DNA of 39,177 nucleotides from an uncultured Micavibrio sp. Its GTDB lineage: Bacteria; Pseudomonadota; Alphaproteobacteria; Micavibrionales; UBA1664. Position 1 is the first letter of the stretch. Every line of letters starts with the position of its first letter. Both the position numbers and the translations under genes were made by a program. The stretch lies in contig CALBME010000086.1 in the NCBI GenBank assembly GCA_937896295.1, positions 1 through 39,177 of the forward strand, in the 5' to 3' direction. Positions 1,913 through 39,177 of the stretch are shown here, piece by piece. Under the pieces are notes generated by a model that had not been told where the DNA came from, did no database searches, and saw only the letters and a program-made list of their open reading frames with translations.

Positions 1913-1981
1913 GATTCGGATTCCCAACGAATCGGAACCTGTGTATAACCTCGGGCGTTCGAAAGAACAGACCCTCTGATT

Positions 1982-11562: not shown

Positions 11563-11668
11563 GCCTGTCTGTATATTCTATGTAAAATAAAATTACAAAT
11601 TCAGCGTCTTAACCATTTCTAACTAACCCGCGTCGTCCTATCCGGCAACCATTCCTTGCGCTTTCGGG

Positions 11669-14074: not shown

Positions 14075-14157
14075 GTGCGTGCCACATCTCTCTTCCAAAA
14101 TGACTATTCCTGCATTAACGATATAATACCCGCCACGTCAAAGATGGAATATATCCG

Positions 14158-15482: not shown

Positions 15483-15651
15483 TCCTAAAAAATAACTGAC
15501 GCATTCTGATACGATTCAGATAGAATCAGTTTCAGGTACAGTCATCGTCAGTTTTCAAGGGGCTCCCCCGTATTGACCAATTTGTTGCACCTCTCCTTCA
15601 GTTTCTCCGGCACCGGTCCGGGTGCGCCTTCTGCAAAATACGCTGTGATCC

Positions 15652-15678
15652 AAAACCTCCCTGTCATGGAGGTTTTTT
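15652..15678 (+). terminator. Rho-independent terminator-like hairpin
   Basis: AAAACCTCC-ctgtcat-GGAGGTTTT followed by TT. A 9-bp stem running into a T tract, about 170 nt downstream of the nearest + strand stop. Confidence 0.5.
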
Positions 15679-15736
15679 GCATTTAAGTCCTTTCGCCTGA
15701 CTCTGTCCTTCAAACCCCTACAAAGGAAACCGCCCT

Positions 15737-16498: not shown

Positions 16499-16507
16499 AT
16501 AGCGGGT

Positions 16508-17122: not shown

Positions 17123-17129
17123 ACAAGCT

Positions 17130-17159
17130 TTGCCAAAACGCCTCAAAATTTGTTAAAAT
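17130..17159 (+). promoter_or_regulatory. candidate sigma-70-type promoter
   Basis: TTGCCA, 18-nt spacer, TAAAAT. Lies about 38 nt upstream of the ATG at 17197 in an AT-rich spacer. Confidence 0.3.
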
Positions 17160-17196
17160 AATAAAAAACAGGGCTACAAGGGCTTAGAGGGCTTTA

Positions 17197-22830: not shown

Positions 22831-22876
22831 CGAATGAATCCCTGCTCACCATTATAAGCGAAAACAGGGGCCACTT

Positions 22877-24382: not shown

Positions 24383-26130
24383 GAACAGCTGTAAGAGTGA
24401 TAGGCCTGACCGGAATTACCGGTACTGCGCGTAAACGTGCATTCACCGTAGTACTGCCAGCCATACAATGTGTTGCGCCAGTACTGACACATATATCCTG
24501 TGCCTGTGCCCCAGCAATTATCATAGACGGTATTACCAAGGTAATAGGTCGAACCGCGCGGCTCGCAATAGGTACGGCCATTCGTATGGGCGACGCATTC
24601 AATCTGGCGCGCGGCACCGCTGGGCGTGTTCATATTCGGATCGCTGTACCCGCCGGGGGCCTGCGCATTATCAAGATAAAGAATGGCGCTGTTGCCCGGC
24701 GCGTCCGCGGTAACGTTTGCGGCGGCCAGCCGTCCGGTCAGCTGGACGCCGTTGCCGACTTCCATCTGGTTGGTACTGAACTGGAAGGCGGGGCCGGGGG
24801 CCGCCCGTGCCATGACCAGCTGATTGGACGTGGCGCCGTTGGTGACAGACATGTTGCCCGCCTGATATTGCTCCGCAATGATGCTGCCGCCGGTGATGTT
24901 GGTGGTGGGTGCAAGCGCGGTGGTGCTGGTGTTCATCGTCGCGCCGGTCACCGTATCAAAGGTGGAAATGCCCGCGACGTTCGTCGTGTTCTGCACATTC
25001 GTAAAATCGGTGATGACGTTGCCCTTGGCGACCATGTTGTTGGCAACCATCATACGGCCGTCGCCGCCTGCCTCGCCCACTGTCTGGATCTCGCCACCGC
25101 TGATGGCGCATCCCGATCCGCTCAAGACGCGGTTGCCGCCATCGACAGCCGCTGAAAAGCTGCAGCCTGCTGTGGGGGTTTTCATGTTCAGGCGTACGTC
25201 ACCGCCCGTATCGATACGCAATGCCTGTTCCACCGTCATGGCCTGTGCTGTGTCGGCCGCAGCCCCTTGCGCCTGACCGCGGAAAGCCGCGTTGCCTTCT
25301 ACCAGGAATTTGTCCGCGATGACCGTGCCGGTGTTCTGCAGTTCATTGGCGTTCATGTCCAGGTTCGTCTGCATCCGGTTCAGTTCAGGACGTCCGTCGA
25401 TCTGCACGCGGTACAGCCAGTGATCGTTGGCATCCGAAAATTCTGAACTGACCAGATCGTAGGTCGCCAGATACCCGCCATCCGTATCGGGTGTGGCGGC
25501 ATAACCCGCCGCTGCCAGTGCCGCGCGCGGCACCGACCATTGATTGAGAACTGACGCCACAACGTTGGTGAAAGTCATGCTGGGCATGACCAGATCGGCG
25601 GAAATGCCCATCGCGGGGCCGCCTGCTGTAGCAGCATCGATAAGACGCTTGTTTCCTGCGCGGACGACATCGCCGGGTGGGTTGTCTGAAACCACGACCA
25701 CCTCGATCGTGGTCAGGATGATGAAATTACCGAATGAATCCATCATCGCGTTGCCGGCAGTGTCGATTTTATTGACCTGCAGGTTGCGGCGGAAAACACG
25801 CATCTGCTGGCGGAATGCGTTTATGGGTTCGTAAGCCGACGGCAGGTAGTTATCCGGCTTCATGTCGTCGACGTCGATTTCCTGGAATATGTTCGGCGGA
25901 TCGGCGCTGAACGTATCGAAATTGGCAAGCACGTAGTCATGCGCCGCCGTCCGCAGGCGCAGCATGTCTGTCGCCGCCTGCCTGTTAATCGCCCGCTCGG
26001 TCCATGAATTGAATATACCGTACATTCCTGCCAGCAGCAGGCCAAGAACGCCAATCGACAACAGCAGTTCCAGCAGGGTGAAACCTGCCTGTCTGTGCGC
26101 GTGGGTACCTGTATATCTCTTCATATCCAT
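24379..26130 (-). CDS. large PilV-like minor pilin / putative adhesin (583 aa)
   Basis: Prepilin N-terminus 'HRQAG/FTLLELLLS' with Glu5, and 'WLYRVQIDGRPELNRMQTNLDMNANELQN'. Cys/Tyr/Trp-rich C-terminal module. ATGA overlap with the next gene. Confidence 0.75.
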   Translation of the reverse strand: MDMKRYTGTHAHRQAGFTLLELLLSIGVLGLLLAGMYGIFNSWTERAINRQAATDMLRLRTAAHDYVLANFDTFSADPPNIFQEIDVDDMKPDNYLPSAYEPINAFRQQMRVFRRNLQVNKIDTAGNAMMDSFGNFIILTTIEVVVVSDNPPGDVVRAGNKRLIDAATAGGPAMGISADLVMPSMTFTNVVASVLNQWSVPRAALAAAGYAATPDTDGGYLATYDLVSSEFSDANDHWLYRVQIDGRPELNRMQTNLDMNANELQNTGTVIADKFLVEGNAAFRGQAQGAAADTAQAMTVEQALRIDTGGDVRLNMKTPTAGCSFSAAVDGGNRVLSGSGCAISGGEIQTVGEAGGDGRMMVANNMVAKGNVITDFTNVQNTTNVAGISTFDTVTGATMNTSTTALAPTTNITGGSIIAEQYQAGNMSVTNGATSNQLVMARAAPGPAFQFSTNQMEVGNGVQLTGRLAAANVTADAPGNSAILYLDNAQAPGGYSDPNMNTPSGAARQIECVAHTNGRTYCEPRGSTYYLGNTVYDNCWGTGTGYMCQYWRNTLYGWQYYGECTFTRSTGNSGQAYHSYSCS

Positions 26131-26133
26131 GTC

Positions 26134-27942
26134 TTACGGCGTAATGTTTGGCGGGACATACTGACGGTCGGCGCAGGCGTTCGCTACGTTTGCACCTTCC
26201 AGGCAGCGCCCGGTGGTGTTGATGATGGGCAGCGGCGCGTTACGGTCCGCATTACTGGTTGTACCGGCGCTCACCAGCGCATTTCCGGCCAGGAACTGAA
26301 GGTCGGCATTGCTGCCGCCCGGCTGCGCGCTGGTCACATTGATGGTGCCCGTATCGGCGATTTCACCGGCGATGGCGGTATAGGCTGAAGGCACGCCGCC
26401 GTTCATGATCGGCGTACTGCCCACCACGGTCGCGGTTGAATTGCTTAAATTCAGGGTGTTTGTGATCTGTGCCTGTGTACCGGTGCTGTCTGTAACGTGG
26501 ACCTGCGCACTATTGCCGGTCATCGTATCGGTAATCAGTTCGGCTGTGACGCCGCCGCCAAAATTCCGGACCATCATGTTTCCGGACAGGTTGGTGGATG
26601 TGGTGACGTTCATCTGCGCGGGGCCGGTGGTCGTGCCTGCGCTGATGGAATCAAAGGTCGGCGTATCCAGTCGGTCGCTGACCAGTGCGTTGGCTTCGCT
26701 GATGGAACCGATCAGGGCATGACCCTTTGCCGCCACGTTGTTGGAATAGGCATAGGCATTGCGTTCCACAACCAGTGTGCCATTGGGGACGTTAAAGCGG
26801 TCATTCACGCCCGCAGGCAATGCGCGGGTATTGTAGACGCGCAGGTCACTGCCCAGGGCGATATTACCGTTCACGCGCATGGAATCGTCGTTACCGTTAC
26901 CGATGAAAACATTGGTATCACCGCCGAAATCGGCGGTCTGCGGCATGGCTACAAGGCGCTGTGCCTGGATATTGGCGACATGGTTGATGTTGTAACGCAG
27001 GTCAGTGGTGGCGGAATCCGACAGCGCGTCGCACACATTGGTGGTTTCCTGATATGTGGCGCCGGCCGCATTCGTTGCCGTAAATTGCACCTGATTGGAT
27101 GTCAGTGAACAATCGCCCGTCGGCGTTCCCATGCCAAGATCGGTCAGCATGGTGGCGTAGCCGGGATTTTCCGGCTGCGGAAAGCGTAAAACCGCGCGTA
27201 AATCCGGTTGAACGGCCTTCCACGCCGGCATGATCAGCGCACCGGGTTCAAGCACTGTCGGGCCGCCAAGGGGCGCCACAAGCGCGGCGAATTCATCGGG
27301 ACGCAGGCAGCCTGTATCCCAGATGGCCGCCGCCGGGCCGCCGCCGCGGCAATCTGCCGAAACGTTGGTGTCGGTGCTGTCAAACAAGGGGGCGGTGATG
27401 GCGACGTTTTCTTTTCGGATGGCGGCGACCATTTCAACCGTCAGGTTTTTGGCGCCTTTACCGCCCGGTGCGTAATACACGAATGCCGAAGGCACGGTTG
27501 CGGGGTCCGTCGGTGACGATGCAATACCGTTCGGGCCCCAGTTGGCCATGATGATAAAGACAGGCATGTTCAGTGCGTTGATCTGCTGGCCGCCGGCATC
27601 GACGCGTCCGAAATTACCAGGCAGGTAACCGTCCGCAATCAGTGTCGCCAGCGGAATGGATGTTGGCGTGGCGGCAGTGGCGCGCAATGTGGCATCGGCG
27701 GCATAACGGTCGCGCATGTAAAGACGCGCGGCCTTGGCGATCTCGACCAGTTCCCATCCGGCGACACGCGCCTCTATCTTGCGGACTTCAAAGCTGCTGA
27801 AACGGGCAATGGTGACAAGGATGGCACCGAAGAAGGCGACAAAAATCAAAGCCAGTAAAAGCGAAATGCCTTTCTGGTCCCTTCTCCCTGCGCACAAGGG
27901 AGGCGTGATGGCTCTGACGGCCTTTATACGTCTCCGTGTCAT
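26134..27942 (-). CDS. large pilin-like protein lacking Glu5 (602 aa)
   Basis: Basic leader, then 'KG/ISLLLALIFVAFFGAILV', a hydrophobic pilin-type helix with Leu at position 5. T/N/G-rich C-terminal half like its two neighbours. Its stop lies 3 nt before the next start. Confidence 0.65.
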   Translation of the reverse strand: MTRRRIKAVRAITPPLCAGRRDQKGISLLLALIFVAFFGAILVTIARFSSFEVRKIEARVAGWELVEIAKAARLYMRDRYAADATLRATAATPTSIPLATLIADGYLPGNFGRVDAGGQQINALNMPVFIIMANWGPNGIASSPTDPATVPSAFVYYAPGGKGAKNLTVEMVAAIRKENVAITAPLFDSTDTNVSADCRGGGPAAAIWDTGCLRPDEFAALVAPLGGPTVLEPGALIMPAWKAVQPDLRAVLRFPQPENPGYATMLTDLGMGTPTGDCSLTSNQVQFTATNAAGATYQETTNVCDALSDSATTDLRYNINHVANIQAQRLVAMPQTADFGGDTNVFIGNGNDDSMRVNGNIALGSDLRVYNTRALPAGVNDRFNVPNGTLVVERNAYAYSNNVAAKGHALIGSISEANALVSDRLDTPTFDSISAGTTTGPAQMNVTTSTNLSGNMMVRNFGGGVTAELITDTMTGNSAQVHVTDSTGTQAQITNTLNLSNSTATVVGSTPIMNGGVPSAYTAIAGEIADTGTINVTSAQPGGSNADLQFLAGNALVSAGTTSNADRNAPLPIINTTGRCLEGANVANACADRQYVPPNITP

Positions 27943-28090: not shown

Positions 28091-28648
28091 TTACTGGAAG
28101 GTCCAGGTCATTTCGTTGTTGGCGGCGGTGTCAGAGCAGGCTGCGGTCATCTGAGCCTGGGTGATTGCACCGGACGTCTGGTCAAAGGTCGTGCCACCGG
28201 CAACCAGCGAGATAAAGTCGTTGGCGTTCTGTGCACTGAACTGTTGGCCCAGGCGGATGCATGCACCGCGCGGAACGTTGGTAAACACGATTTCAAAGCG
28301 GTTGTCTTGAGCATTGACTTCAACCGGGCCGAACGGGCCTTTTGCAGTCATTGCAGCGCCGGCGCCGTTGGTACCGAGATCCGACGGAAGCGCGCGCATG
28401 TCAGCGAGTTCTCCCAGGATGTTGGCGTTGGCAGCACCGTATGTGGATTGCCCCTGATAAGCCTGCTGAACCTGTTGTTTCAGCGTAGTCAGAAGACGGG
28501 TGGCTTGGTTGGTATTGTTATTTTCCGAGACAAGGCGGTAAGCGCCGAGACCGGCGAGGATAAGGACCGCGCCGACGGCAACAACCAGCAGCAACTCGAG
28601 AAGTGAGAAGCCGGACTGGCGGCGTGTATTAGGGCAATTGATTTTCAT
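28091..28648 (-). CDS. pilS: type IV major pilin (R64 PilS-like, type IVb)
   Basis: 'MKINCPNTRRQSG/FSLLELLLVVAVGAVLILAGLGAY' prepilin cleavage/methylation motif with Glu5. C-terminal Cys pair (GACIRL...AACSD). Codon usage suggests high expression. Symbol follows R64 nomenclature. Confidence 0.85.
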   Translation of the reverse strand: MKINCPNTRRQSGFSLLELLLVVAVGAVLILAGLGAYRLVSENNNTNQATRLLTTLKQQVQQAYQGQSTYGAANANILGELADMRALPSDLGTNGAGAAMTAKGPFGPVEVNAQDNRFEIVFTNVPRGACIRLGQQFSAQNANDFISLVAGGTTFDQTSGAITQAQMTAACSDTAANNEMTWTFQ

Positions 28649-28796: not shown

Positions 28797-29876
28797 TTAT
28801 TCCTGCGACGTCTGAATCTGCTGGAATACCGAGTAAAACGAGATAATCAGGCAGCCGATGACAATGGCGATCAGGATCAGGATGACGAAATTGACGATTT
28901 TCATCGCCGTATTGACCTTCTCGACCAGCCCGTCCACCCACGTATTAGTGACGCGGATCAGGTTCTGGTCGAATCCGCGCAGGCGGGCGTAAATCTGAAG
29001 ATCGCCGATAATTTCGGCATCCGGGAATTCATATCCCGTGTTGAACAGGGCGTCGCCCAGGTTTTCGCCACCGGCGATATATTTCTGCAGGGCTTTGACG
29101 CGCTGTTTCAGGTAAGGCGATGACAGGCGGCTGATACGCTGCAGACTGACCTCGTCCAGTTTGACCCCTGCCGACATCAACGACGCGATAGAAAGCAGGA
29201 ACGCCGAACCCTGCCACATCTTATACATGCTGTATGGCACCATCCGGTCGGCATAAATGCGCGCCTTTCCGGTCCAGCGCGGCATGGACATACTGACCGT
29301 CACAATGACGCCGCACACACCCATGAGAATGAACAGGCCCTGTTCACGGATGAATCGCGCCGCGATGGCGACACCGTAAGCGACGCCCTCCCATTTATCG
29401 ACGGGAATGATCTGCTCGAACGTCGGAATCACCTTGAAGGATGACAGCACCATGGCCGCCACCAGCATGGCGACCAGCACGGCCGGGTATGCGCCGGCGG
29501 TGATGATCGCCTTTTTGATCTTGCCCTGGTTTTCGATGGCATCGGCCGCATTGTGCAGGGATTTGAGGAGTTTGCCCGAGTTCGCGCCGGTTTCGATCAG
29601 GATGGCTTCGGCGCTGGGAACATAGGGGCCGACACACTGGCCGAAGTTCATGCCTTCCGCCACGTTGTTACGCCATTTTTTATACAGTTTGGGCAGGGCC
29701 GAGCGCGGCTTGTTGCGCGCGGCAATTCTGCCGATTTGCGCCAGCGCCGTATCAAGCGACACACCGTTCTCGAGCAGTTGCATCAGCTTGATGTAAAATT
29801 TCTGCCGCTGCTCTCCGCTGAACTCCATTTTAACGGAGAGATTGAACCAGGTGTCTGTCTTGCGCTTTTTGGCCAT
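28797..29876 (-). CDS. pilR: type IV pilus inner-membrane platform protein (GspF/PilC family; R64 PilR equivalent)
   Basis: 359 aa with a cytoplasmic helical domain plus three or more TM segments. Lies directly after the GspE-type ATPase. Symbol follows R64 nomenclature. Confidence 0.85.
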   Translation of the reverse strand: MAKKRKTDTWFNLSVKMEFSGEQRQKFYIKLMQLLENGVSLDTALAQIGRIAARNKPRSALPKLYKKWRNNVAEGMNFGQCVGPYVPSAEAILIETGANSGKLLKSLHNAADAIENQGKIKKAIITAGAYPAVLVAMLVAAMVLSSFKVIPTFEQIIPVDKWEGVAYGVAIAARFIREQGLFILMGVCGVIVTVSMSMPRWTGKARIYADRMVPYSMYKMWQGSAFLLSIASLMSAGVKLDEVSLQRISRLSSPYLKQRVKALQKYIAGGENLGDALFNTGYEFPDAEIIGDLQIYARLRGFDQNLIRVTNTWVDGLVEKVNTAMKIVNFVILILIAIVIGCLIISFYSVFQQIQTSQE

Positions 29877-29894: not shown

Positions 29895-31448
29895 CTATCC
29901 GCGCTTGGGAAGAATGATCGGACCCACGATACGCTCGGCATCGCCCGGGTCCACTTCGCCTGCACGCAGGCGATCGACCATATGCTCCATCATGTTTTTA
30001 CCGTTCAGCGATGTCAGCCAGTATTGCTCGGCGTCCTGCTTCTGGTCGCGGCGCACCATATCCATGAACGTGTTGTCGGGAATGATGATTTCCGAGACGA
30101 CGGTACGGCTTGAATAACCAGTACTGTTGCATTTCGGGCAACCCTGCGGGTTACGCTTGCGCAGGCGTTCCACGGGCACCTGCGCGGCTTCAAGGCGCGC
30201 CAGCAGGTTGTAGTTAAGCTCTTTTTCCTCGATCGGCAGGCAGCATGACTTGCACAGTTTGCGAACCAGGCGCTGTGAAATCATACCCGTCATCAGCGTG
30301 GGATCGCACAGCTTGTATTCCTCGACCTCAAGGTCACGCAGACGGAAAGGAATGGTGATCGCATCGTTGGAGTGGAGCGACGTCCACACTTGGTGGCCGG
30401 TCATCGCGGCTTCAAACGCAAGGCCGGCGGATGCGGCGTCGCGCACCTCACCGATCATGATACGGTCCGGGTTCGAACGCATGGCGGCGGCGATGGCCTT
30501 GGTGAACTGGGCCGCACGCTCTTCCTGCGTGTTGGCGTTGGTCACCGGCATCTGCACGGCGCCCTGAATCGGGTATTCCGGCGGATCTTCCACGGTGTAG
30601 AAGGCGAGGTTGTAATTATATTCCTTCAGAATCGCGATGATGTTCCGCTGCAGGGTCGTGGATTTGCCGTGACCCGTGGGGCCTGCGACCACGTTGATGC
30701 CATACGGCTTGGAGCGCAGGAACTCGAAATCCTCCAGCTGCTCGGGCGTGAAACCGAGGGCCGCGACGTCACCGGCGGTTTTGTCGTCGGTGTTGTACAG
30801 GATACGCAAAATCATTGCGCGACCGTCATAAACGGTCGGGTTGAACTGCAGACGAAGGGAAATCACGCCCTCCGGCAACTGCAGGTCCTTACGGTTCGAA
30901 ACCCGCGCACCCTGATATTCATAGGGCTGGTAGTTGACGTCGGCGGCATCCGCCATGGTGAACGCGGCGGCGCAGAAGCTATGGCCGTATTCCGGCGGCC
31001 ATTCGGCGATGTGTTCCATGGCGCCCGCGACCCGCGCGCGTACAAGGCAGCTTTGTTCATAGACGACAACGTGAATATCCGAAACCCGGCGCTTGGCCAT
31101 GTCACCAACGAGGTTCAACACCTCGCGGCGCATCCGCACCTCGTCCTGTTTGGAACGGAAGTCGAAAGATCCGGCCGTACGTTCGTACGAAAGCTGGACG
31201 CGGTTCAGTTCGACGCCTTCGATGACCGGCTCGGGGTAACCGTTTGCGCGGATCTCGGCGATCAGGGACAGGATATGCGGCGACGACCGGTGCGACTTGG
31301 ACACGATCATCTTACCGTCGATATAATAGGCGGCAATCTGGCGCAGGTTCTGGCCGCGATCCAGCGGCCCACCCTCCGCCGTCAGCGGTACGGCGGGATC
31401 CCAGTGGTCATTGGCTTTCTTCTTGCCTGGCAGAAGAGAAAACGCCAT
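29895..31448 (-). CDS. pilQ: type IV pilus assembly ATPase (GspE/PilB family; R64 PilQ equivalent)
   Basis: Walker A 'GPTGHGKST', Asp box 'VEDPPE', Walker B 'RIMIGEVRD', His box 'TGHQVWTSLH' and a tetracysteine 'CKSCC...CPKC'. TGATG overlap with the upstream gene. Symbol follows R64 nomenclature; this is not the type IVa secretin. Confidence 0.92.
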   Translation of the reverse strand: MAFSLLPGKKKANDHWDPAVPLTAEGGPLDRGQNLRQIAAYYIDGKMIVSKSHRSSPHILSLIAEIRANGYPEPVIEGVELNRVQLSYERTAGSFDFRSKQDEVRMRREVLNLVGDMAKRRVSDIHVVVYEQSCLVRARVAGAMEHIAEWPPEYGHSFCAAAFTMADAADVNYQPYEYQGARVSNRKDLQLPEGVISLRLQFNPTVYDGRAMILRILYNTDDKTAGDVAALGFTPEQLEDFEFLRSKPYGINVVAGPTGHGKSTTLQRNIIAILKEYNYNLAFYTVEDPPEYPIQGAVQMPVTNANTQEERAAQFTKAIAAAMRSNPDRIMIGEVRDAASAGLAFEAAMTGHQVWTSLHSNDAITIPFRLRDLEVEEYKLCDPTLMTGMISQRLVRKLCKSCCLPIEEKELNYNLLARLEAAQVPVERLRKRNPQGCPKCNSTGYSSRTVVSEIIIPDNTFMDMVRRDQKQDAEQYWLTSLNGKNMMEHMVDRLRAGEVDPGDAERIVGPIILPKRG

Positions 31449-32275
31449 CAGCTTTTCACCCAGTCCAGCGGCTTGACGCCTTTGTCATCACGAATGGTCA
31501 CACCTGCCGGCGTCACGCGCACAACGGTGGTCTTGCCGTCCGGCAGCTTGGCGCCGGTCTTGGCGCGGATTTCATCGCCCTCGGGGCTGACCAGCTTGGC
31601 TTCGACGCCGCCGCCCGCGCTGTAAATTTCACGGATCGTCCAGGGCATGGCCGGTTTTTCAGGCTCTGCCGCCTTCGCCGGCGCTTCGTTGTCCGCAGGC
31701 GCGCTGGAAGGTGCGGGCATGCTGGGCACCGGGCGGCCCTGCGCGATGTTCGGTCCGACATCGGCACCGGCAAGCGCGTTGGCAGGCAGGGGCATCAGGC
31801 CCATGCCGCCCGCGCGTTGTGCGCCTGCCATGCCGGGAGGGGCTTGCAGGCCCAGCGCCGCATCCGCGGCGGCGACGTTTTTGACAACGCTTTCGTTCAG
31901 GCGTTCAAGCAGCTGCGCGCGCTGGACGCACAGCGTGAAACGGTCGATATCTTCCTGCACCTTGGCCAGATCGTCGGGCGACGCGTTCAGCGCGGCTTCC
32001 GGCGCGGGGCACGGATCGGTGGCGGGCGGTCCGTCGTTCTGAACCGTTTTCGGCTGTTCGGGCATGCCGGATGAAGCTGCTGCCTGTTGTTGCGGGGCTG
32101 CAGCCTGCGCCTGTCCCTGGTCTTGCGGCTGCTCCAGCGTGGGGGCTGCTGACGCGCCCGGTGCGTTCAGTTGGGATTCGTCGGGCGCGGCAACGTCCTG
32201 CGCATGGGCGCCTGCGGCAAACGTGATAAACGCAGCCGCTGTCAAAAGACGAAAAAGGGCGGTTCGTGATGTCAT
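31448..32275 (-). CDS. pilP: PilP-like pilus biogenesis protein (R64-type)
   Basis: Signal peptide 'AFITFAAGAHA/Q', a Q/A/P-rich linker, and the C-terminal domain 'PWTIREIYSAGGGVEAKLV...GAKLPDGKTTVVRVTPAGVTI'. Confidence 0.7.
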   Translation of the reverse strand: MTSRTALFRLLTAAAFITFAAGAHAQDVAAPDESQLNAPGASAAPTLEQPQDQGQAQAAAPQQQAAASSGMPEQPKTVQNDGPPATDPCPAPEAALNASPDDLAKVQEDIDRFTLCVQRAQLLERLNESVVKNVAAADAALGLQAPPGMAGAQRAGGMGLMPLPANALAGADVGPNIAQGRPVPSMPAPSSAPADNEAPAKAAEPEKPAMPWTIREIYSAGGGVEAKLVSPEGDEIRAKTGAKLPDGKTTVVRVTPAGVTIRDDKGVKPLDWVKS

Positions 32276-32287
32276 CGTTTTTACTCC

Positions 32288-32995
32288 TTAATTTGCGTTC
32301 GCGGCCAAAAGCTGGCGCGCTTTGGAATTGGCGGCAATCAGGCGGGCGTCGGGGCGCAGGATCAGCTTGGCGCTGTAAACCCAGATTCCGTCGCTGACGC
32401 TTGTCGACATGTTCAGGAACACAAGTCCCGGCAGGTCGAAATATTTTCCGATCATGTTCGGCGGCGTGCTGCTCTTCAATTCGATGGCCAGGTACGGCAT
32501 GTCATCGCGGGTCAGCGGCTTCAGTTCAACCTTGTCTTTACCGATCGCGTTAAAGCCGGACTGTTGAATCATCTCCACACTCTGGACCAGCTGCTGGCTG
32601 GCTGCCGGCACGACCTCCCGCAGGGTGATCTGGCCGATATTCGCAAACCGCTTGGTCAGGATGATGATAGCATAACTTCTGTCCAAAAGCTCCTGTGCTT
32701 CGGTCGGCTCAAGCTTCGCGGTCAGACGGCGGTTGGCGATAAGGTTCTGCGAATCGGCAAAATTACGGGTCACGCCTTCGGGGAAACGCGACAGGTACGG
32801 CTCCACCATTTCATAAGACCCGATCTGGCGGTTCCAATTCCCCTCGACGATTGTGTCTTTGCAGCGCAGGGTTACCATTTTCCAGCCCGGCAACGGCACG
32901 GCCAGCGCGGCAAAGCCGTCGAGACAGCTGTTCATCTGTTCGCTTGGTACCAGCAATCCCATCTTGGTCAGGGACATGCCGCTTTCTTCCTGCAC
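32288..32995 (-). CDS. PilO-like protein, C-terminal (periplasmic) part; probably the downstream half of a frameshifted gene
   Basis: No signal peptide or TM of its own. Its reading frame stays open far upstream into the preceding ORF. GTG (32995) or ATG (32977) start if it is independent. Confidence 0.55.
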   Translation of the reverse strand: MQEESGMSLTKMGLLVPSEQMNSCLDGFAALAVPLPGWKMVTLRCKDTIVEGNWNRQIGSYEMVEPYLSRFPEGVTRNFADSQNLIANRRLTAKLEPTEAQELLDRSYAIIILTKRFANIGQITLREVVPAASQQLVQSVEMIQQSGFNAIGKDKVELKPLTRDDMPYLAIELKSSTPPNMIGKYFDLPGLVFLNMSTSVSDGIWVYSAKLILRPDARLIAANSKARQLLAANAN

Positions 32996-33807
32996 AACGC
33001 TTGGTTCTTTCGGAGGGACCTGCAGTACGTCGGACGACTCGATACCCGGCAGGGGCAGCTGCGCCTCATCGGTACCAGCGACGTCAGAAGGCTTTGCCCC
33101 GCAATCGACACGACCAGCAGCACGACGATGGTTGCGATCGCGCCAAACGCCAGGTTCTTGTTGCGCTTGCCCGAAAAAATAGCATCCAGGTTGACGGGCT
33201 TGAGGATGGATGGCGGCGCCTCGCCAATGACGCGGGAAAGCGGAATTTCACCGGTCGCATCCGGCACGTTCCACGATTCCGGCGCATAGGCGCGCGGCCA
33301 GCGGAATGCTTCGCCCTGCGCCATGAAATGGTTATAGGCGGCTTCTTCGGATGAAAACAGGATATCGCCGTCCGGGGCGATGTTGTCCGAGTGAACGGCG
33401 ACATACCACCAGCCATTGTCGGCTACGAAAACGGCGTGCCACTCGCCGACAAGCGCATCCGCCGCGACGGACGCCAGTGCCGACTGGCCCAGCCGGTGGC
33501 CTTTGCGCAGGTAACCGAAACCATGCTGCGTGACCACGCCCTGACGCATGGTATAGAAATCGGCTTTGAATTCCTTCGCGCGGCCCTTGGCCAGGGCTGT
33601 GTCGCCCTCGTCATCCGCGATCAGCCAGTTGAGACCGACGGCATAACGCTTGTTGTCGTAAAGAAGAATGCCTTCGCCGCTGGGGCCCTTGGCGGGTTGG
33701 GCGGTGATTTCCTCATGCACCGCCGCCTCAGCCTCAGCCATATCCAGTGGCTCATCGAGATCGATGTCCAGGAAATCCTTGTCGCTGTTGTCGTCGTTGC
33801 GGGCCAT
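32968..33807 (-). CDS. PilO-like pilin accessory protein, N-terminal cytoplasmic domain plus TM; the last ~35 codons look out of frame
   Basis: Acidic N-terminus and a globular domain ('YAVGLNWLIADDEGD...WWYVAVHSDNI'). TM helix 'LAFGAIATIVVLLVVSIAG', then an implausible Arg/Cys-rich tail. Confidence 0.6.
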   Translation of the reverse strand: MARNDDNSDKDFLDIDLDEPLDMAEAEAAVHEEITAQPAKGPSGEGILLYDNKRYAVGLNWLIADDEGDTALAKGRAKEFKADFYTMRQGVVTQHGFGYLRKGHRLGQSALASVAADALVGEWHAVFVADNGWWYVAVHSDNIAPDGDILFSSEEAAYNHFMAQGEAFRWPRAYAPESWNVPDATGEIPLSRVIGEAPPSILKPVNLDAIFSGKRNKNLAFGAIATIVVLLVVSIAGQSLLTSLVPMRRSCPCRVSSRPTYCRSLRKNQALCRKKAACP

Positions 33808-33826: not shown

Positions 33827-35425
33827 TTACTGGTTGCCGATCACCGTGATCGGATCTTCCGGCAGGATCTCCGAAGTAATCAGCATCACCGTAACTTCGC
33901 GGTCGCGGTTGGTGTTTTTGCTTCCGCCCAGGATCGGCAGGTACGGCGTACCCTGATCCGTCTTGGAATTGAGTTTCTTCTCAAAGCCCGCCAGAACCAG
34001 CGTCTCGCCCGAAGTGACGACGGCGTTCTGCAGGAAGCCGGTCGTTTCCACTTCAGGCAGCTGGATCGACGCAGCCGAGTCGCCCGAACCGGACGTAAAC
34101 GTTGCGAAAGGTTGTTGCGCATCCGTGATGGCGACTGAAAGACGCATCAGGATTTTGTTGCCCTCAACAATACGCGGCAGGATCGTCATCATAAGGCCGG
34201 TGTTGACCGTGCCGGGCTCGAGGCTGACCGAACCGCCGGTATCGCCCGAAGTCGACGAGGTGCGTTTCAGGTAGCTGATCTGGCGGCCAACCTGCAGCGG
34301 CGCGGGCTGGTCGGACAGCGTAACGATGGCGCCGGAATGGGCGACGGATGCGCGCGTGACGTTGCTGTTCGCCTTGAATTCGGCGAGCAGGCGGTCGGTG
34401 CTGACCTGGGTGGCGACCGCCGTATCTTGTGGTGCGCGGATGACGCCCAGCGCAAGGCCGGACGTGGCGCCGCCGATGCTGCGTACTGATGTCATGCCGA
34501 ACGCGCGGCGGACAATGCCGGTGACGTCTGCCGAAAGGTCGAGGTCGTTGTTCGCGGTCACCGAAATGACTTTCACGGCGATGGCCACGCGGCGCAGGCG
34601 CATGCTGTTCTGCTGGTTCAGGTAAGCTTCGACGCGGCGGACGATGTCCGGCTCGCCGGTGACGGTGATGGTGCCCGTGCTGGGTGAAAACGCGGCCTTG
34701 CCGGCGTCGCCCATGATGGTGGAAACAGCGTCCTTGATTTCATCCCAGACTTTGAGGGATGCGCTGGAGGTCACGTCAACTTCCGGCAGGTTCGATGCCG
34801 AGTCGCCCGAGCTTCCCGATTTAACCGTGCCTTTATACGATAATTCGCTGGCCAGTGCGTGCAGCATGAAGGTGCGCGTGATTTGCTGCGCGAAATCGAT
34901 GCTGGTGCCGTCATAATGCCAATCGGCGTTGAAATAATCGGCTGCCTGATTCAGCAGGTCGGAAAGACGGCCCGACCATACGACGCGTCCGCCTGCGACC
35001 TGTTCGCCGTCGGTGGGCATGAAGGTTTTTTCCGTCGTGGTGGTGGCGGCGCTGAGCGACGTGCCCGTGGCGGCTGCGCGCAGGCCGGTAACGGCCTGCA
35101 CCATGCGCATCAGTTCTTCCATCGTCACCGGACGGGCAAAGGTCATGACGATGGCGTTTTGCGTTTCAAACTGCGGTGGCAGGGCCGAGCCGTTGGTGAT
35201 CGGCACTGCCGCCGAACCGTAATAGGGGTTGGAATCGATGGTCAGGGATTGCGCGACCGGATTTTTGGGGCTGATGTCGGTCAGAGCGCGGTCGGCGCTG
35301 ACGGTCATGTCCTCGTAATTCGTATCGACGGTGCGGACTTCGGCACAGGATGTCAGGCCCAGCCCTGCCGCGAACAGAAGGGCGGGAAGGGTCTTGGCGA
35401 AACCTTTGAAGGGCGAAAGCATCAT
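33827..35425 (-). CDS. pilN: outer-membrane lipoprotein secretin (R64 PilN / BfpB type)
   Basis: Lipobox 'GLGLTSC'. C-terminal secretin motif 'TLVLAGFEKK...GTPYLPILGGSKNTNRDREVTVMLITSEIL'. Start taken at the MM (35425) preceding the signal peptide; the ORF track starts at 35515. Confidence 0.85.
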   Translation of the reverse strand: MMLSPFKGFAKTLPALLFAAGLGLTSCAEVRTVDTNYEDMTVSADRALTDISPKNPVAQSLTIDSNPYYGSAAVPITNGSALPPQFETQNAIVMTFARPVTMEELMRMVQAVTGLRAAATGTSLSAATTTTEKTFMPTDGEQVAGGRVVWSGRLSDLLNQAADYFNADWHYDGTSIDFAQQITRTFMLHALASELSYKGTVKSGSSGDSASNLPEVDVTSSASLKVWDEIKDAVSTIMGDAGKAAFSPSTGTITVTGEPDIVRRVEAYLNQQNSMRLRRVAIAVKVISVTANNDLDLSADVTGIVRRAFGMTSVRSIGGATSGLALGVIRAPQDTAVATQVSTDRLLAEFKANSNVTRASVAHSGAIVTLSDQPAPLQVGRQISYLKRTSSTSGDTGGSVSLEPGTVNTGLMMTILPRIVEGNKILMRLSVAITDAQQPFATFTSGSGDSAASIQLPEVETTGFLQNAVVTSGETLVLAGFEKKLNSKTDQGTPYLPILGGSKNTNRDREVTVMLITSEILPEDPITVIGNQ

Positions 35426-35595
35426 GGACGTGTGGCCACCGGCTGGAGATGTTTTAAGAGAAAGACGAAATCTAGCGATCCCGCCTGCGTTATGACGACT
35501 CAAATTGTACGGCAAGCAAGCGCCCGAGAGAAGCGGAATTACAAGGGCCTAGGCGGCATATGAGCGCGGCGGCAGGGAAGATTGGGTGGGAATTT

Positions 35596-35628: not shown

Positions 35629-36816
35629 TTACATGCTGTTCTGGCGGGTTTCGATCACCAGCACGGCGGGGCCGTTCGGCAGGTTGGGGTGCAGGCGGCC
35701 CATCGGGCGCGGCTTGGAATCGTACAACCCCTTCAGAAGGACCTGTACGGCCTCCTCGAACGTGCCGTTGAGGGACACGCCCGACTGGACCGGATAGTCA
35801 TATTCCGAAGCCCAGTACAGCTCGACATCGGCGCGCTTGCTCCAGTCTTCCAGGATGCTGCGCAGGGTGGAATTGCGCGGCGCGGTCCAGGTGCTGTTGG
35901 CCAGCAAATCGGGGCGGCCGGCAGCCGCCGGGGCCGCATAGGCCGGTGCGGTCATGTCGTCGATCACGGCGGGCATGGCCATCGGTGCCATGGGCGCAGG
36001 CGCGGCGGAAATCATGGCCGGGGCCGGGGTCATGGTCGTCGTGGTGTTCGTCTGGATGGTCTGCGTCGCAACCGAAGGGCCGTTCATCGACGCCATCTGC
36101 AGCCCGCCGGTGCGGCTGATCGAAATGACGTTGCCGTTGATGGTGGCCTGCATGCCCATGGGGGCAAGGGTGTTTTGCAGGACAATGTCCCACGGCGCGC
36201 CGCCCTGCCATGAAATGTGCTGCTGGACGTCGATATTCTGGTCGAACACGAAACCATAGCGCGGCGGTACGATCTGACGGATCGCCATGACCAGCGGCAG
36301 GTCGCGGCCAAAGCCTTGCGCCACTTCGTACTGGCTATTGTTCATCGGTGACAGGAGATTGCTGTATCCGTCGATGCTGCCCGATACGGGGGCCGGAGCC
36401 TGCGCCACGATCGGCTGCGGCATGCCGTTGGTCTGCGGCGCGCGGGGGACGTAAACCTCGTTATTGCGCGAACGCTGCTGTTGCTGCATCGGCGCATTCC
36501 ACGTCACGGGGTCGTTGGTCATGCCCTGGCCGTAAATGGGCGCCGCGCTTGCCGGGCCGTCCGGCATGGTGGCGATGGGCGCGCCGGCCTGGATCGGCTG
36601 GCCGCTGGCAAGGGATTCGGACATGACGGGTGTAACCGGCGCTGCTGCCGAACGCGGCGCCATTTCTGGCGGGCGGGCGTTGCTGTTGCCGGGTGCGGCT
36701 GCCGACGGCGCGGGTGCCGTCCACTGGAAACCAGCCTGCGCGCTTGCGGCGGACAATACCAAAACAGATGCGGCGATCAGAACGCTGCGCACACGACCAT
36801 TCATCGATAACCTCAT
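35629..36816 (-). CDS. PilL/TcpQ-like periplasmic pilus protein
   Basis: Signal peptide 'VLIAASVLVLSAASAQA/G'. P/A/Q-rich linkers. An STN-like domain ('DLPLVMAIRQIVP...ISWQGGAPWDIVLQNTL') and a C-terminal TcpQ-like domain ('WTAPRNSTLRSILEDWSKRADVELYW...GTFEEAVQVLL'). Start is at 36816 or 36804; the ORF track starts at 36918. Confidence 0.6.
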   Translation of the reverse strand: MRLSMNGRVRSVLIAASVLVLSAASAQAGFQWTAPAPSAAAPGNSNARPPEMAPRSAAAPVTPVMSESLASGQPIQAGAPIATMPDGPASAAPIYGQGMTNDPVTWNAPMQQQQRSRNNEVYVPRAPQTNGMPQPIVAQAPAPVSGSIDGYSNLLSPMNNSQYEVAQGFGRDLPLVMAIRQIVPPRYGFVFDQNIDVQQHISWQGGAPWDIVLQNTLAPMGMQATINGNVISISRTGGLQMASMNGPSVATQTIQTNTTTTMTPAPAMISAAPAPMAPMAMPAVIDDMTAPAYAAPAAAGRPDLLANSTWTAPRNSTLRSILEDWSKRADVELYWASEYDYPVQSGVSLNGTFEEAVQVLLKGLYDSKPRPMGRLHPNLPNGPAVLVIETRQNSM

Positions 36817-36939
36817 GACCCTCGGAAAACTGGCAGGCGGGTGCGAATCATCCGCCCCGTCTTTTCTGTGCGAAAGTTTAAGATCGCTTGCGCCAAAACA
36901 CAAGCTGTTCAAAGACATGGCGGTGGATAGAATGGACGC

Positions 36940-37521
<582 letters not shown>

Positions 37522-37529
37522 TTCTATTG

Positions 37530-37817
37530 TTAACCGAAGTCGTTGAGTCTTCGGCGCCGGTGCCAAAGCAGGCCGGGACGATTTGCGCCCAGGATCCAGG
37601 TCCGGAACGACCGTACCGACGCATCAAATGTCAGGCCCTTGCGTTCCAGAAGCCAGAACAGGATGCACATCACGATAAACAGGGTGAATGTCCACGCCCG
37701 CATATGAACCATGAAAAACATCAGGAACAGGGCGACGCGCGCATCCAGTGCAAAAAACCGTACCGGTTTCATGCTGTTGCGCCAGTGCCAGTCACTTTCT
37801 GTCTGAATTTCTGCCAT
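37530..37817 (-). CDS. icmT: IcmT/TraK-family type IVB secretion system protein
   Basis: 'DWHWRNSMKPVRFFALDARVALFLMFFMVHMRAWTF' matches the remembered IcmT signature (HWRDS..RFF..DAR). 95 aa, two TM helices. Directly downstream of a DotB-like ATPase. Confidence 0.7.
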   Translation of the reverse strand: MAEIQTESDWHWRNSMKPVRFFALDARVALFLMFFMVHMRAWTFTLFIVMCILFWLLERKGLTFDASVRSFRTWILGANRPGLLWHRRRRLNDFG

Positions 37818-37878
37818 GGCCTGATTGTACCACAGGGTTAAGGATGCTGCGACTGTCTACCGCAGGCAGACATGAGGA

Positions 37879-39039
37879 TCAGGTCGATCCGGCGGCCTGC
37901 GTCAGGGTCAGGTACCAGCGGCGCTCGATCACGCCGGTTTCGAACAGCTTGGTGGCGGACCGTGACAAGGTCTGTCCGTAGTTCGGGATCATGCGCTGGA
38001 TTTCAACCGTCCACTGGTTGTAGTCCATATCCAGAAGTTTTTCGCGCACCAGGTCGTTGAACACCATCCACTCGCGCACGCCTACGCGTCCGCCGCCGAT
38101 TTTCGGCACCAGCGCCTGCGTCACCACCATGCGTAACGTTTCCATCAGGGCATAGGCGCGCTCGGCGCGTTCATCCCCTTCAAAGGTCGAAATCATACGG
38201 CGGATGGTGGCGGCAACGCCGGTGGTGTGCGTCGTGGTGTAAACGGCGTGGCCGGTCTGACCCGCCTCGATCGCGGCGGAAATGGTTTCCTTGTCGCGCG
38301 CTTCACCCACCAGAATGATATTCGGTTTGCGGCGCAGGGCGTTGCGCACGCCGGCGGCAAAGCTTGGCAGGTGGCGCGGAATTTCCGTCTGTGCCACGAC
38401 CGAGTGCGGCGAGTGAATCGCATCATAGGTGAATTCGATCGGCGCTTCGTAGGTCAGCATCTTGCCGCAGCCGTGTTTCTTTTCCAGCAGCATGCGGCAA
38501 CCGGACGCCAGCAGCGTGGTTTTACCCGAACCCGTAGGACCGGTGATGACGACCATGCCCTGACGCTGCGCCCAGTTGTCGATGATCTCAGGCTCTATGT
38601 TCAGGTCCGACATTTTCGGCGGCTCGCTCGGAAGCGCGCGCATGGTGACCTGCGCCGCGTCTCGTCCCTTGGACAGGATGGCGGTGATGTTCACGCGGAA
38701 ACGGTGACGCTTGTACCTGTCGGGGCGGATTTCGTACGACACGTCCAGATCGTCGCCACCCGCGAGGCGTGCCTGCGCCTCGGGCCCGTAAATTTTCGCA
38801 AGCACGATCGCCATGTCGGCGGCATCCATCGGGCGGAACGTACCGGGATAAAGCTTGCCGTGAATTTCGTTATAAACCGGGCGGTCGGTTTGCCATGTGA
38901 TATCCGACGACCCCTGATGCACGCACCACAGAAGGAACGGATCGATATGCTCTTCCGTAAAGCGCGTTGGTTCGTCCGGCCATGTCTGCCCGGCGCCGCC
39001 CGTTCCTTTCAGAAGGCTTATCGGCTTGCGGGTTGCCAT
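37879..39039 (-). CDS. PilT/DotB-family hexameric secretion ATPase (DotB/TraJ-like)
   Basis: Walker A 'GPTGSGKTT', 'YEAPIE' Asp box, 'IILVGEARD' Walker B and 'TGHAVYTTTHT' His box. The ATG at 39039 with a GAGG Shine-Dalgarno is preferred over the TTG at 39135. Confidence 0.85.
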   Translation of the reverse strand: MATRKPISLLKGTGGAGQTWPDEPTRFTEEHIDPFLLWCVHQGSSDITWQTDRPVYNEIHGKLYPGTFRPMDAADMAIVLAKIYGPEAQARLAGGDDLDVSYEIRPDRYKRHRFRVNITAILSKGRDAAQVTMRALPSEPPKMSDLNIEPEIIDNWAQRQGMVVITGPTGSGKTTLLASGCRMLLEKKHGCGKMLTYEAPIEFTYDAIHSPHSVVAQTEIPRHLPSFAAGVRNALRRKPNIILVGEARDKETISAAIEAGQTGHAVYTTTHTTGVAATIRRMISTFEGDERAERAYALMETLRMVVTQALVPKIGGGRVGVREWMVFNDLVREKLLDMDYNQWTVEIQRMIPNYGQTLSRSATKLFETGVIERRWYLTLTQAAGST

Positions 39040-39177
39040 TCGTACGGCCTCGGCTGGAGTTGGGACGGACCCGTGATCTGCAACGCACGGTCGCCCACGC
39101 GCATTTCCTTGCCGCCGCCGGTGACGCCGCCGCAAGGCAGGCCCTCGCGGAACGCCTGCGCCGCGATACCGCCGGCA
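39018..39177 (-). CDS. 3' end of an upstream gene truncated by the window edge (unknown; position expected for DotC/TraI)
   Basis: This frame has strongly G/C-biased third positions ('...AGGIAAQAFREGLPCGGVTGGGKEMRVGDRALQITG...'). It ends at a TAA at 39018-39020, overlapping the ATPase start by 22 nt. Confidence 0.45.
   Translation of the reverse strand, partial: AGGIAAQAFREGLPCGGVTGGGKEMRVGDRALQITGPSQLQPRPYEWQPASR

What the first reader, a model, noticed from the sequence alone, without database searches (positions are those of the whole stretch)
37530..39177. DotB/TraJ-like ATPase plus IcmT/TraK-like gene: probable edge of a type IVB secretion locus next to the pilus genes
The 386-aa ATPase is PilT/DotB-family. 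It is followed after 61 nt by a 95-aa two-TM protein whose 'HWRNSMKPVRFFALDARV' N-terminus matches the IcmT/TraK signature as I remember it. In IncI plasmids the order is traH(dotD)-traI(dotC)-traJ(dotB)-traK(icmT), and those plasmids also carry the R64-type thin pilus. The truncated ORF at 39018-39177, translationally overlapped with the ATPase, sits where dotC/traI would be. A chromosomal Dot/Icm-like system paired with a type IVb pilus in an alphaproteobacterial backbone would be noteworthy, either as an effector-translocation system or as an integrated IncI-like conjugation system. The alternative reading is that the ATPase is simply a BfpF-like retraction motor for the pilus.
Basis: partly seen in the sequence, partly recalled or inferred. 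Interest (0 to 1): 0.7.

Follow-up and report, generated by a model that had tools for sequence, protein, structure and literature searches.

The report
Dot/Icm secretion genes beside pilus operon
The window ends in four genes of a Legionella-type (type IVB) secretion machine, joined to a thin-pilus operon on the chromosome of a relative of the predatory bacterium Micavibrio, so these predators may use such a machine on bacterial prey.

Summary
On the minus strand, 37879-39039 encodes a 386-aa ATPase. It matches DotB far better than TraJ or PilT (400, 244 and 218 bits) and scores 367 bits against Legionella DotB structure 6GEB. After a 61-nt gap, 37530-37817 encodes a 95-aa IcmT/TraK protein (83 bits, cutoff 40).

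A 56-kb public contig, 99.7% identical over the 11.3 kb compared, extends past the window end. Upstream lie dotC/traI, dotD/traH, a lytic transglycosylase and one unknown gene, and then housekeeping genes. So this is a compact dotD-dotC-dotB-icmT module, not the edge of a large locus.

The organism is a Micavibrio-like alphaproteobacterium. The module is syntenic in all related loci examined. In relatives the other core genes (dotI, dotH, dotG, dotN, dotO) are contiguous with it or lie at a second chromosomal locus. In the window's deep sub-lineage the module is fused to an R64-like pilus operon (pilL-pilV).

I found no integrase, relaxase, tRNA gene or GC shift, and dN/dS is 0.06-0.18. Nothing marks a mobile element and the genes are under selection.

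I could not show that the window's own genome holds the rest of the machine.

Verdict: a new member of a known kind, of moderate interest.

The parts
39018..39130 (-). 3' end (36 codons plus stop) of the dotC/traI-like gene. Its stop overlaps the dotB start by 22 nt. Window bases 39131-39177 are not homologous to dotC.
   Evidence: Full gene of 298 aa in L001, PF16932 T4SS_TraI 259 bits. Terminal mismatch shown.
37879..39039 (-). dotB-like hexameric secretion ATPase, 386 aa
   Evidence: TIGR02524 DotB 400 bits, TraJ 244, PilT 218. PDB 6GEB DotB 367 bits over the full length, best PilT 143. 49% identical to Legionella DotB, 31% to IncI TraJ, 25% to BfpF; tree. dN/dS 0.057.
37530..37817 (-). icmT/traK-family small inner-membrane protein, 95 aa
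   Evidence: NF038220 83.4 bits, cutoff 40. Precomputed PF28014 IcmT_2. 39-43% identical to annotated icmT on the Bosea plasmid. dN/dS 0.084.
36940..37521 (+). TMEM175-family channel gene on the opposite strand, between icmT and pilL. It is a lineage-specific insertion and not part of the system.
   Evidence: PF06736 110 bits. Absent in L100, L101 and L113, a remnant in L006, frameshifted in L001.
35629..36918 (-). TcpQ-domain protein (PilL-like). It follows icmT in every related locus, with or without pilus genes. The gene call in L001 is 391 aa, which would put the start near 36804.
   Evidence: PF10671 46.5 bits. Conserved after icmT in L006-L013, L100, L101 and L113. Weak match to IncI PilL: 26% over 72 aa.
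33827..35515 (-). PilN-type secretin of the type IVb pilus
   Evidence: TIGR02520 208 bits, below its cutoff of 287.65; PF00263 68 bits.
32288..33807 (-). pilO, frameshifted in the window by a 1-nt deletion near 33067. It is intact (506-507 aa) in L001, L003 and L006.
   Evidence: PF06864, weak. Indel mapped; gene calls.
31448..32275 (-). PilP-like protein
   Evidence: TIGR03021 31.4 bits, just below its cutoff of 34.65.
29895..31448 (-). PilQ-type pilus assembly ATPase
   Evidence: PF00437 227 bits. 33% identical to IncI PilQ over 491 aa. Groups with BfpD in the tree.
28797..29876 (-). PilR-type platform protein
   Evidence: PF00482. 28% identical to IncI PilR.
28091..28648 (-). PilS-type major type IVb pilin
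   Evidence: PF08805 PilS, PF05307 Bundlin and the N_methyl motif.
21808..27942 (-). Distal pilus genes: a 602-aa unknown, a 583-aa PilV-like protein (shufflon N-terminal constant region plus prepilin motif), a 501-aa prepilin-like protein and a 340-aa secreted unknown.
   Evidence: PF04917 and PF07963 on the 583-aa protein. Prepilin-like N-terminus on the 501-aa protein. 25% identical to IncI PilV.

Best explanation
The finding is the dotC(3' end)-dotB-icmT part of a four-gene module, dotD-dotC-dotB-icmT. The module belongs to a resident chromosomal Dot/Icm-like type IVB secretion system of a Micavibrio-like alphaproteobacterium.

Inferred mechanism, by analogy with Legionella:
- DotD (a lipoprotein) and DotC help build the outer-membrane cap.
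- IcmT, a small inner-membrane hairpin, helps anchor the VirB4-like ATPase DotO to the membrane.
- The DotB hexamer docks onto DotO and powers or gates export.

The remaining core genes (dotI, dotH, dotG, dotN, dotO) are encoded at another chromosomal site, as they are in relatives.

In this sub-lineage the module sits directly upstream of an R64-like type IVb pilus operon, in the same orientation. That is the same pairing of machine and thin pilus found on IncI plasmids. The likely use is contact-dependent protein delivery into target cells, plausibly bacterial prey, with the pilus providing attachment.

Shown here: gene identities, order, synteny, purifying selection and the lack of mobile-element marks. 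Inferred: completeness of the system in this genome, its substrates and its targets.
For: Identity of the genes:
- HMM scores, the PDB match to DotB 6GEB and the ATPase tree.
- DotD carries a lipobox, LAGC.

Extension and organism:
- L001 is 99.7% identical to the window over 11.3 kb. It shows DsbG-like, unknown 313 aa, SLT, DotD, DotC, DotB, IcmT, and then housekeeping genes.
- The eight genome-scan relatives are Micavibrio or Micavibrio-like MAGs with 74-94% DotB identity and share the module.

Link to a complete machine:
- The module is contiguous with dotG, dotH and dotI in L010. It is contiguous with traQ-like, dotN and dotO genes in L012.
- A second locus holds dotI-dotH-dotG-(444 aa)-traQ-like-(132 aa)-dotN-dotO. 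It is collinear with IncI traM-traV.
- DotB and DotO lie on contigs of identical length in at least nine cases. Over 2000 DotO homologues were found, some named IcmB in Micavibrio MAGs.

Resident, not mobile:
- Uniform GC, no tRNA genes, and no family match to integrase or relaxase among the window ORFs scanned.
- The same flanking genes appear in genomes whose housekeeping proteins are only 54-65% identical.
- dN/dS is 0.057-0.18.

Published function and precedent:
- IcmT and DotJ-DotI anchor DotO, and DotB recruitment depends on them (PMC11474061).
- TXSScan found 'pT4SSi' systems in seven Micavibrionales MAGs (PMC9418006).
Against: - For the window's own genome, and for its whole sub-lineage (DotB at least 78% identical), I found no dotO, dotG, dotH or dotI.
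- None occurs in the 56-kb contig.
- None lies between flgK-flgL and the Tim44-secB-dnaQ block, where other clades keep them.
- No contig-length match to this sub-lineage appears in the two DotO protein searches or the metagenome scan.
- The DotB and DotD scores are below the NCBIfam equivalog cutoffs.
- DotC lacks a lipobox cysteine.
- No DotA or DotL coupling protein was seen in any locus. No substrate is known.
- The ARL-13 genome paper reported no type IV secretion system (PMC3189940).
Confidence: 0.7

Rival explanations
1. Hybrid machine. In this sub-lineage the rest of the type IVB system is absent. The DotD-DotC-DotB-IcmT module has been co-opted by the type IVb pilus, for example with DotB as an accessory or retraction-like motor and DotD/DotC as partners of the PilN secretin.
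For: - The module and the pilus operon form one co-directional block in four deep branches: the window clade, L100, L101 and L113.
- L113 keeps the block although its flanking genes are entirely different (topA, dprA).
- No locus-B gene could be tied to this sub-lineage in any search.
- The pilus operon has no retraction ATPase of its own.
Against: - The same module, including the TcpQ-domain gene, occurs without pilus genes and contiguous with dotG, dotH, dotI or dotN, dotO in other clades.
- DotB groups with Legionella DotB, not with PilT or BfpF.
- IcmT's only known role is as a DotO receptor (PMC11474061).
- A deep, partly high-GC DotO clade (L072-L089) has no assigned DotB partner and could belong to this sub-lineage.
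- My searches listed only the top 80-120 hits, so absence is not shown.
Confidence: 0.15
2. Integrated IncI-like conjugative element (ICE) that moves DNA between cells.
For: The traH-I-J-K gene order plus an R64-type thin pilus matches the IncI plasmid layout. I-type modules occur on alphaproteobacterial plasmids.
Against: - No family match to relaxase, coupling protein, integrase or replication genes among the window ORFs scanned, and none among the precomputed Pfam calls on the flanks; no tRNA gene either.
- GC is uniform across the locus and its flanks.
- The locus sits in the same chromosomal context in genomes with 54-65% housekeeping identity.
- DotB is much closer to Legionella DotB (49%) than to plasmid TraJ (31-38%).
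Confidence: 0.05
3. Decaying remnant of a former type IVB system with no current function.
For: Only four core genes sit at this site. The window copy of pilO is frameshifted, and a foreign gene (TMEM175 family) is wedged between icmT and pilL.
Against: - dN/dS is 0.057 for dotB and 0.084 for icmT, as low as or lower than neighbouring housekeeping genes.
- The ORFs are intact and the ATPase motifs are present.
- The module is conserved across lineages.
- The pilO frameshift is absent from two near-identical contigs, so it may be an assembly error.
Confidence: 0.05

Closest known systems
[quoted passage not shown]
   Same: DotB is 49% identical over nearly its full length, DotC 37% and DotD 30%. 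The system is chromosomal and its genes are split over separate regions. Locus B of relatives is collinear with the Legionella order icmL-K-E-G-C-D-J-B, as I recall that order. No relaxase lies nearby.
   Different: Here icmT follows dotB directly, as on IncI plasmids; in the Legionella region fetched, dotA follows dotB. The host is a Micavibrio-like alphaproteobacterium rather than an intracellular gammaproteobacterium. A type IVb pilus operon is attached. DotB and DotD score below the equivalog cutoffs, and DotC has no lipobox. DotA, DotL and effectors were not seen.
IncI1 (R64-type) plasmid transfer system with thin pilus
   Same: Identical traH-traI-traJ-traK order. The R64-type pilus genes pilL, N, O, P, Q, R, S and V are present. 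Locus B of relatives matches traM-N-O-P-Q-R-T-U-V.
   Different: TraJ is only 31% identical and TraI 30%. The system is chromosomal, with no relaxase, oriT or exclusion genes. The pilus operon lies downstream of traK instead of upstream of traE. No pilU peptidase and no rci recombinase (family scans); shufflon repeats were not searched for. The transglycosylase lies upstream of dotD.
I-type modules on alphaproteobacterial plasmids (e.g. Bosea sp. RAC05 pBSY19_1)
   Same: Same four-gene order. DotC is 41% identical, IcmT 39-43% and DotD 33%.
   Different: Plasmid-borne, next to rep and par genes. The ATPase is only 38% identical, further away than Legionella DotB. No adjacent pilus operon in the stretch fetched.
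PilT/PilU/BfpF pilus retraction ATPases
   Same: Same ATPase superfamily (PF00437) and similar size.
   Different: PilT model 218 bits against DotB 400. PDB PilT at most 143 bits against DotB 367. BfpF 25% and YggR 30% identical, and both fall in a separate clade. The gene neighbours are dotC, dotD and icmT.

Membership tests
Dot/Icm-like type IVB secretion system (MPF-I / pT4SSi) | DotB/TraJ-family ATPase | tested here: met
   TIGR02524 400 bits, the best model although below its equivalog cutoff of 463. 6GEB 367 bits. Sister to Legionella DotB in the tree.
Dot/Icm-like type IVB secretion system (MPF-I / pT4SSi) | IcmT/TraK small membrane protein | tested here: met
   NF038220 83.4 bits, above its cutoff of 40.
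Dot/Icm-like type IVB secretion system (MPF-I / pT4SSi) | DotC/TraI and DotD/TraH outer-membrane components | tested here: met
   In the 99.7%-identical contig L001: PF16932 259 bits and PF16816 116 bits, and DotD has the lipobox LAGC. The NF033882 DotD model gives 102 bits, below its cutoff of 140. Only the last 36 codons of dotC lie in the window.
Dot/Icm-like type IVB secretion system (MPF-I / pT4SSi) | VirB4-like DotO/TraU plus DotG, DotH and DotI core | tested here: inconclusive
   Absent from the window and the 56-kb contig. Present and linked to the module in relatives L010 and L012, and at a second locus in L014, L017, L072 and L078. Could not be located or excluded for the window's sub-lineage.
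Dot/Icm-like type IVB secretion system (MPF-I / pT4SSi) | Coupling protein DotL and DotA/TraY | not tested
   Not seen in any fetched locus.
IncI-type conjugative plasmid or ICE | Relaxase, oriT and coupling protein, plus marks of a mobile element | tested here: not met
   No family match to such genes among the window ORFs scanned or in the precomputed Pfam calls on the flanks. No tRNA genes, uniform GC, and a conserved chromosomal context. oriT itself was not searched for.
IncI-type conjugative plasmid or ICE | traH-I-J-K order and R64-type thin pilus genes | tested here: met
PilT/BfpF retraction ATPase | Membership in the PilT/PilU family, with the PilT model scoring best | tested here: not met
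   TIGR01420 218 bits, below its cutoff of 319 and far below the DotB score. Separate clade in the tree.

The most novel reading that the evidence does not exclude
In this deep Micavibrio-like sub-lineage, the DotD-DotC-DotB-IcmT module no longer serves a full type IVB machine. Instead it has been captured by the R64-like type IVb pilus, giving a hybrid pilus/secretion apparatus inherited as one block. A milder version is also open: the full Dot/Icm-like system and the pilus together form the prey-attack device of these epibiotic predators, that is, a Dot/Icm system aimed at bacteria.
Probability: 0.15. Interest if true: 0.85.

Novelty: new member of a known kind. Interest (0 to 1): 0.5.

Why it matters
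Dot/Icm systems are known mainly as effector injectors of intracellular pathogens of eukaryotes, and as IncI conjugation machines. Here the genes are resident and under purifying selection, and the module recurs across the Micavibrio-like lineages sampled. Cultured members of that group live by attaching to other bacteria and consuming them.

How Micavibrio kills and feeds is unknown. The reference genome paper stated that it has no type IV secretion system (PMC3189940). The only mention I found is one sentence listing 'pT4SSi' hits in seven marine MAGs (PMC9418006).

If the system delivers proteins into prey, it would be a type IVB counterpart of the bacteria-killing type IVA systems of Xanthomonas and Lysobacter. 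It would also give predator biology a concrete genetic target.

The tight fusion with an R64-like pilus, whose PilV adhesins recognise recipient-cell surfaces on IncI plasmids (my recollection of the R64 literature), suggests how prey might be recognised.

Tried and rejected
Attempts to find dotO in the window's own lineage all failed to settle the question:
1. I ran two DotO protein searches, one with L012 DotO and one with a 12-sequence profile. Only the top 120 hits were listed, and none sat on a contig whose length matches a contig of the window clade.
2. A metagenome scan with the DotO profile kept 80 of 259 loci. None overlaps or links to window-clade contigs.
3. Amino-acid composition as a proxy for GC did not discriminate between lineages.
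4. I compared identity patterns and GC between the DotB sub-lineage and a deep DotO clade (L072-L089). They are compatible but not congruent enough to call.
5. Two near-equal contig lengths turned up (889,169 against 889,960, and 966,943 against 967,705). By rough reckoning about 0.3 such pairs are expected by chance, so I did not use them.

Other dead ends:
- I extended the 56-kb contig at both ends and found only housekeeping genes.
- Pfam and NCBIfam gave nothing for the unknown proteins of 385, 658, 444 and 297 aa that lie between flgK and Tim44. They also gave nothing for the 602-, 501- and 340-aa pilus-distal proteins.
- The stored copy of the ARL-13 expression table is cut short and did not let me find the orthologous genes.
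- The promoter and terminator scan of 36700-39177 found nothing above chance.
- R64 itself (AP005147) is not in the plasmid collection, so I used an IncI-gamma/K1 plasmid instead.
- Structure prediction was not used. Only window proteins can be submitted, and the informative unknown (313 aa, upstream of the transglycosylase) lies outside the window.
Full report
**Observation**

The genes lie on the minus strand. A 386-aa ORF runs from the ATG at 39039 to the stop at 37879. After a 61-nt gap comes a 95-aa ORF at 37530-37817.

The ATPase has intact Walker A, Walker B and His-box motifs. The small protein has one ~36-residue hydrophobic stretch, enough for a two-helix hairpin.

NCBIfam scores the small protein as IcmT/TraK: NF038220, 83.4 bits, cutoff 40. 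It scores the ATPase best as DotB at 400 bits, against 244 for plasmid TraJ and 218 for PilT/PilU. The DotB score is below that model's strict cutoff of 463. My local Pfam copy has no IcmT model, but the precomputed annotation lists PF28014 IcmT_2.

Against solved structures, Legionella DotB (6GEB) aligns over residues 20-380 at 367 bits. The best PilT reaches 143 bits and BfpD 54.

**Beyond the window end**

The exact DotB protein is encoded on a 56-kb public contig (L001). That contig is 99.7% identical to the window over 11.3 kb. Read in the direction of transcription, it carries:

- a DsbG-like thioredoxin-fold protein
- an unknown protein of 313 aa
- a TrbN-like lytic transglycosylase
- DotD (PF16816, 116 bits, lipobox LAGC)
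- DotC/TraI (PF16932, 259 bits)
- DotB, then IcmT

Further upstream are FIST, Bax1-I, GGDEF, LOG, phosphatidylserine decarboxylase and phosphatidylserine synthase genes. So the secretion genes stop after dotD.

The last 47 nt of the window (39131-39177) do not match L001, L004 or L006, which agree with one another there. They are probably a contig-end artefact.

**The rest of the window**

Downstream of icmT lie:

- a TMEM175-family gene on the opposite strand
- a TcpQ-domain (PilL-like) protein
- a PilN secretin, PilO and PilP
- the PilQ ATPase and the PilR platform protein
- the PilS pilin
- a 602-aa unknown, a PilV-like protein and a 501-aa prepilin-like protein
- a 340-aa secreted protein

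This is an R64-type thin-pilus set.

The remaining 21.8 kb holds flgK-flgL and housekeeping genes: SCO1, PhoH, Smr, a GNAT acetyltransferase, an M29 peptidase, Tim44-like, secB, dnaQ, coaE, aroE and others. I found no tRNA genes, and no family match to integrase or relaxase among the ORFs scanned. GC is even at 0.54-0.62.

**Organism and conservation**

A scan of species-representative genomes found eight relatives with 74-94% DotB identity. They are labelled Micavibrio, Pseudobdellovibrionaceae (the NCBI family that holds Micavibrio) or unclassified Alphaproteobacteria or Pseudomonadota MAGs.

All eight carry DotC-DotB. Wherever the contig extends far enough, DotD, IcmT and the TcpQ-domain gene sit in the same order, usually with the transglycosylase, the unknown gene and the DsbG-like gene upstream.

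Between the window species (L001) and the 94% relative, dN/dS is 0.057 for dotB, 0.084 for icmT, 0.14 for dotD and 0.18 for dotC. Neighbouring housekeeping genes give 0.12-0.19.

**Is it part of a whole machine?**

In relatives, yes.

- In L012 the module is followed by a TraQ-like gene, a small membrane protein, IcmJ/DotN and a 996-aa protein that other sources name IcmB/DotO.
- In L010 it is followed by DotG/TraO-like, DotH and DotI/IcmL genes. The DotI match scores 205 bits against a cutoff of 175.
- Other genomes hold a second locus with the order dotI-dotH-dotG-(444 aa)-traQ-like-(132 aa)-dotN-dotO. It is flanked by housekeeping genes.
- That order is collinear with traM-N-O-P-Q-R-T-U-V of an IncI plasmid. 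As I recall the Legionella order, it also matches icmL-K-E-G-C-D-J-B.
- DotB and DotO hits share identical longest-contig lengths in at least nine cases.

The order therefore has a chromosomal type IVB system that is often split into two loci. One paper records this in passing: TXSScan found 'pT4SSi' in seven marine Micavibrionales MAGs (PMC9418006). The M. aeruginosavorus ARL-13 genome paper had reported no type III or IV system (PMC3189940). I found no paper linking Micavibrio to DotB or T4BSS.

**The window's own sub-lineage**

DotB proteins at least 78% identical to the window's form a deep group whose housekeeping proteins are only 54-65% identical. In the branches I could read, dotD-dotC-dotB-icmT runs straight into pilL-N-O-P-Q-R-S. 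Those branches are the window clade, L100, L101/L102 and the marine L113.

L113 has quite different flanking genes (topA, dprA). The dot-pil block therefore travels as a unit. The TMEM175-family gene is a recent insertion confined to the window clade.

For this sub-lineage I could not find locus B:

- It is not in the 56-kb contig.
- It is not between flgK-flgL and the Tim44-secB-dnaQ block, where several other clades keep dotO.
- No listed DotO hit sits on a contig known to belong to this sub-lineage.

This is weak negative evidence, because only the top 80-120 hits were visible. A deep DotO clade (L072-L089) has a matching GC range and adjoins flgK-flgL in some members. It could be the missing partner.

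**ATPase family**

The window ATPase is 49% identical to Legionella DotB, 38% to the Bosea plasmid ATPase and 31% to IncI TraJ. It is 30% identical to the PilT-like YggR and 25% to BfpF (over 185 residues).

In an NJ tree of 361 aligned columns, it falls in a Micavibrio-like clade sister to Legionella DotB (90% of 50 bootstrap replicates). The plasmid TraJ proteins branch next. YggR and BfpF fall outside the DotB/TraJ clade, which also has 90% support. The window's PilQ groups with BfpD. The retraction-motor reading is therefore rejected.

**Mechanism**

By analogy with Legionella:

- DotD and DotC contribute to the outer-membrane cap.
- IcmT, together with DotJ-DotI, anchors the DotO dodecamer. 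DotB recruitment depends on these receptors (PMC11474061).
- DotB supplies ATP-driven gating.

These roles are inferred from homology and were not tested here. The paired pilus probably mediates cell contact, as the IncI thin pilus does. I put the full-system reading at about 0.7, a pilus-coupled hybrid at 0.15, an integrated conjugative element at 0.05 and a decaying remnant at 0.05.

**Verdict**

The locus is a compact, conserved module rather than the edge of a large cluster. This is a new member of a known kind (Dot/Icm-like, I-type secretion) in a predator-related lineage where it has barely been noticed. Its fusion to a type IVb pilus operon is notable. Interest is moderate at 0.5. It would be higher if the system proves to target bacterial prey, or if the module truly works with the pilus alone.

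Noticed in passing
window 39131-39177: The last 47 nt of the window do not match the dotC sequence of three related contigs (L001, L004, L006), which agree with one another. This is probably a chimeric contig end.
   Followed up: yes
window ~33067 (pilO, 32288-33807, minus strand): A one-base deletion relative to L001 and L003 splits pilO into overlapping 279-aa and 235-aa ORFs. It is either a real pseudogene in this strain or an assembly error.
   Followed up: yes
window 36940-37521 (+): A TMEM175-family potassium-channel gene sits on the opposite strand between icmT and pilL. It occurs only in the window clade: a remnant in L006, frameshifted in L001, absent in L100, L101 and L113.
   Followed up: partly
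window 21808-27942 (-): The pilus-distal genes include a 602-aa and a 340-aa protein with no family match, and a 501-aa protein with a prepilin-like N-terminus (RRRHTAG|FSLLEM). These may be tip or adhesin components.
   Followed up: partly
window 10405-18531: Unknown proteins of 385, 658, 297 and 444 aa have no Pfam or NCBIfam match. They lie in the interval between Tim44 and flgK where some related clades carry dotI-dotO. The 658-aa ORF is overlapped by a 594-aa antisense ORF.
   Followed up: partly
L014 1765-7309; L017 1750-7426; L010 12902-15693: Tandem paralogous proteins of unknown function (about 400-575 aa, 35-40% identical to one another) lie between dotI and the traQ-like gene in some Micavibrio-like genomes: four copies in L014 and L017, two visible in L010. 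They could be candidate substrates or accessory parts.
   Followed up: no
L092 14659-22000: In a distant lineage (DotO about 60% identical to the query), dotO lies next to pilS, pilR, pilQ, pilO and pilN homologues. This is a second, differently arranged pairing of type IVB genes with a type IVb pilus.
   Followed up: no
L010 32-3289: A 1085-aa RTX-repeat protein with a type I secretion signal lies directly upstream of dotD in one relative, in place of the transglycosylase and DsbG-like genes.
   Followed up: no
window 593-2872: Two tandem DUF6782 putative metallopeptidase genes precede the aroE-coaE-dnaQ block. This pairing is conserved next to dotO loci in other clades (L030, L050).
   Followed up: no
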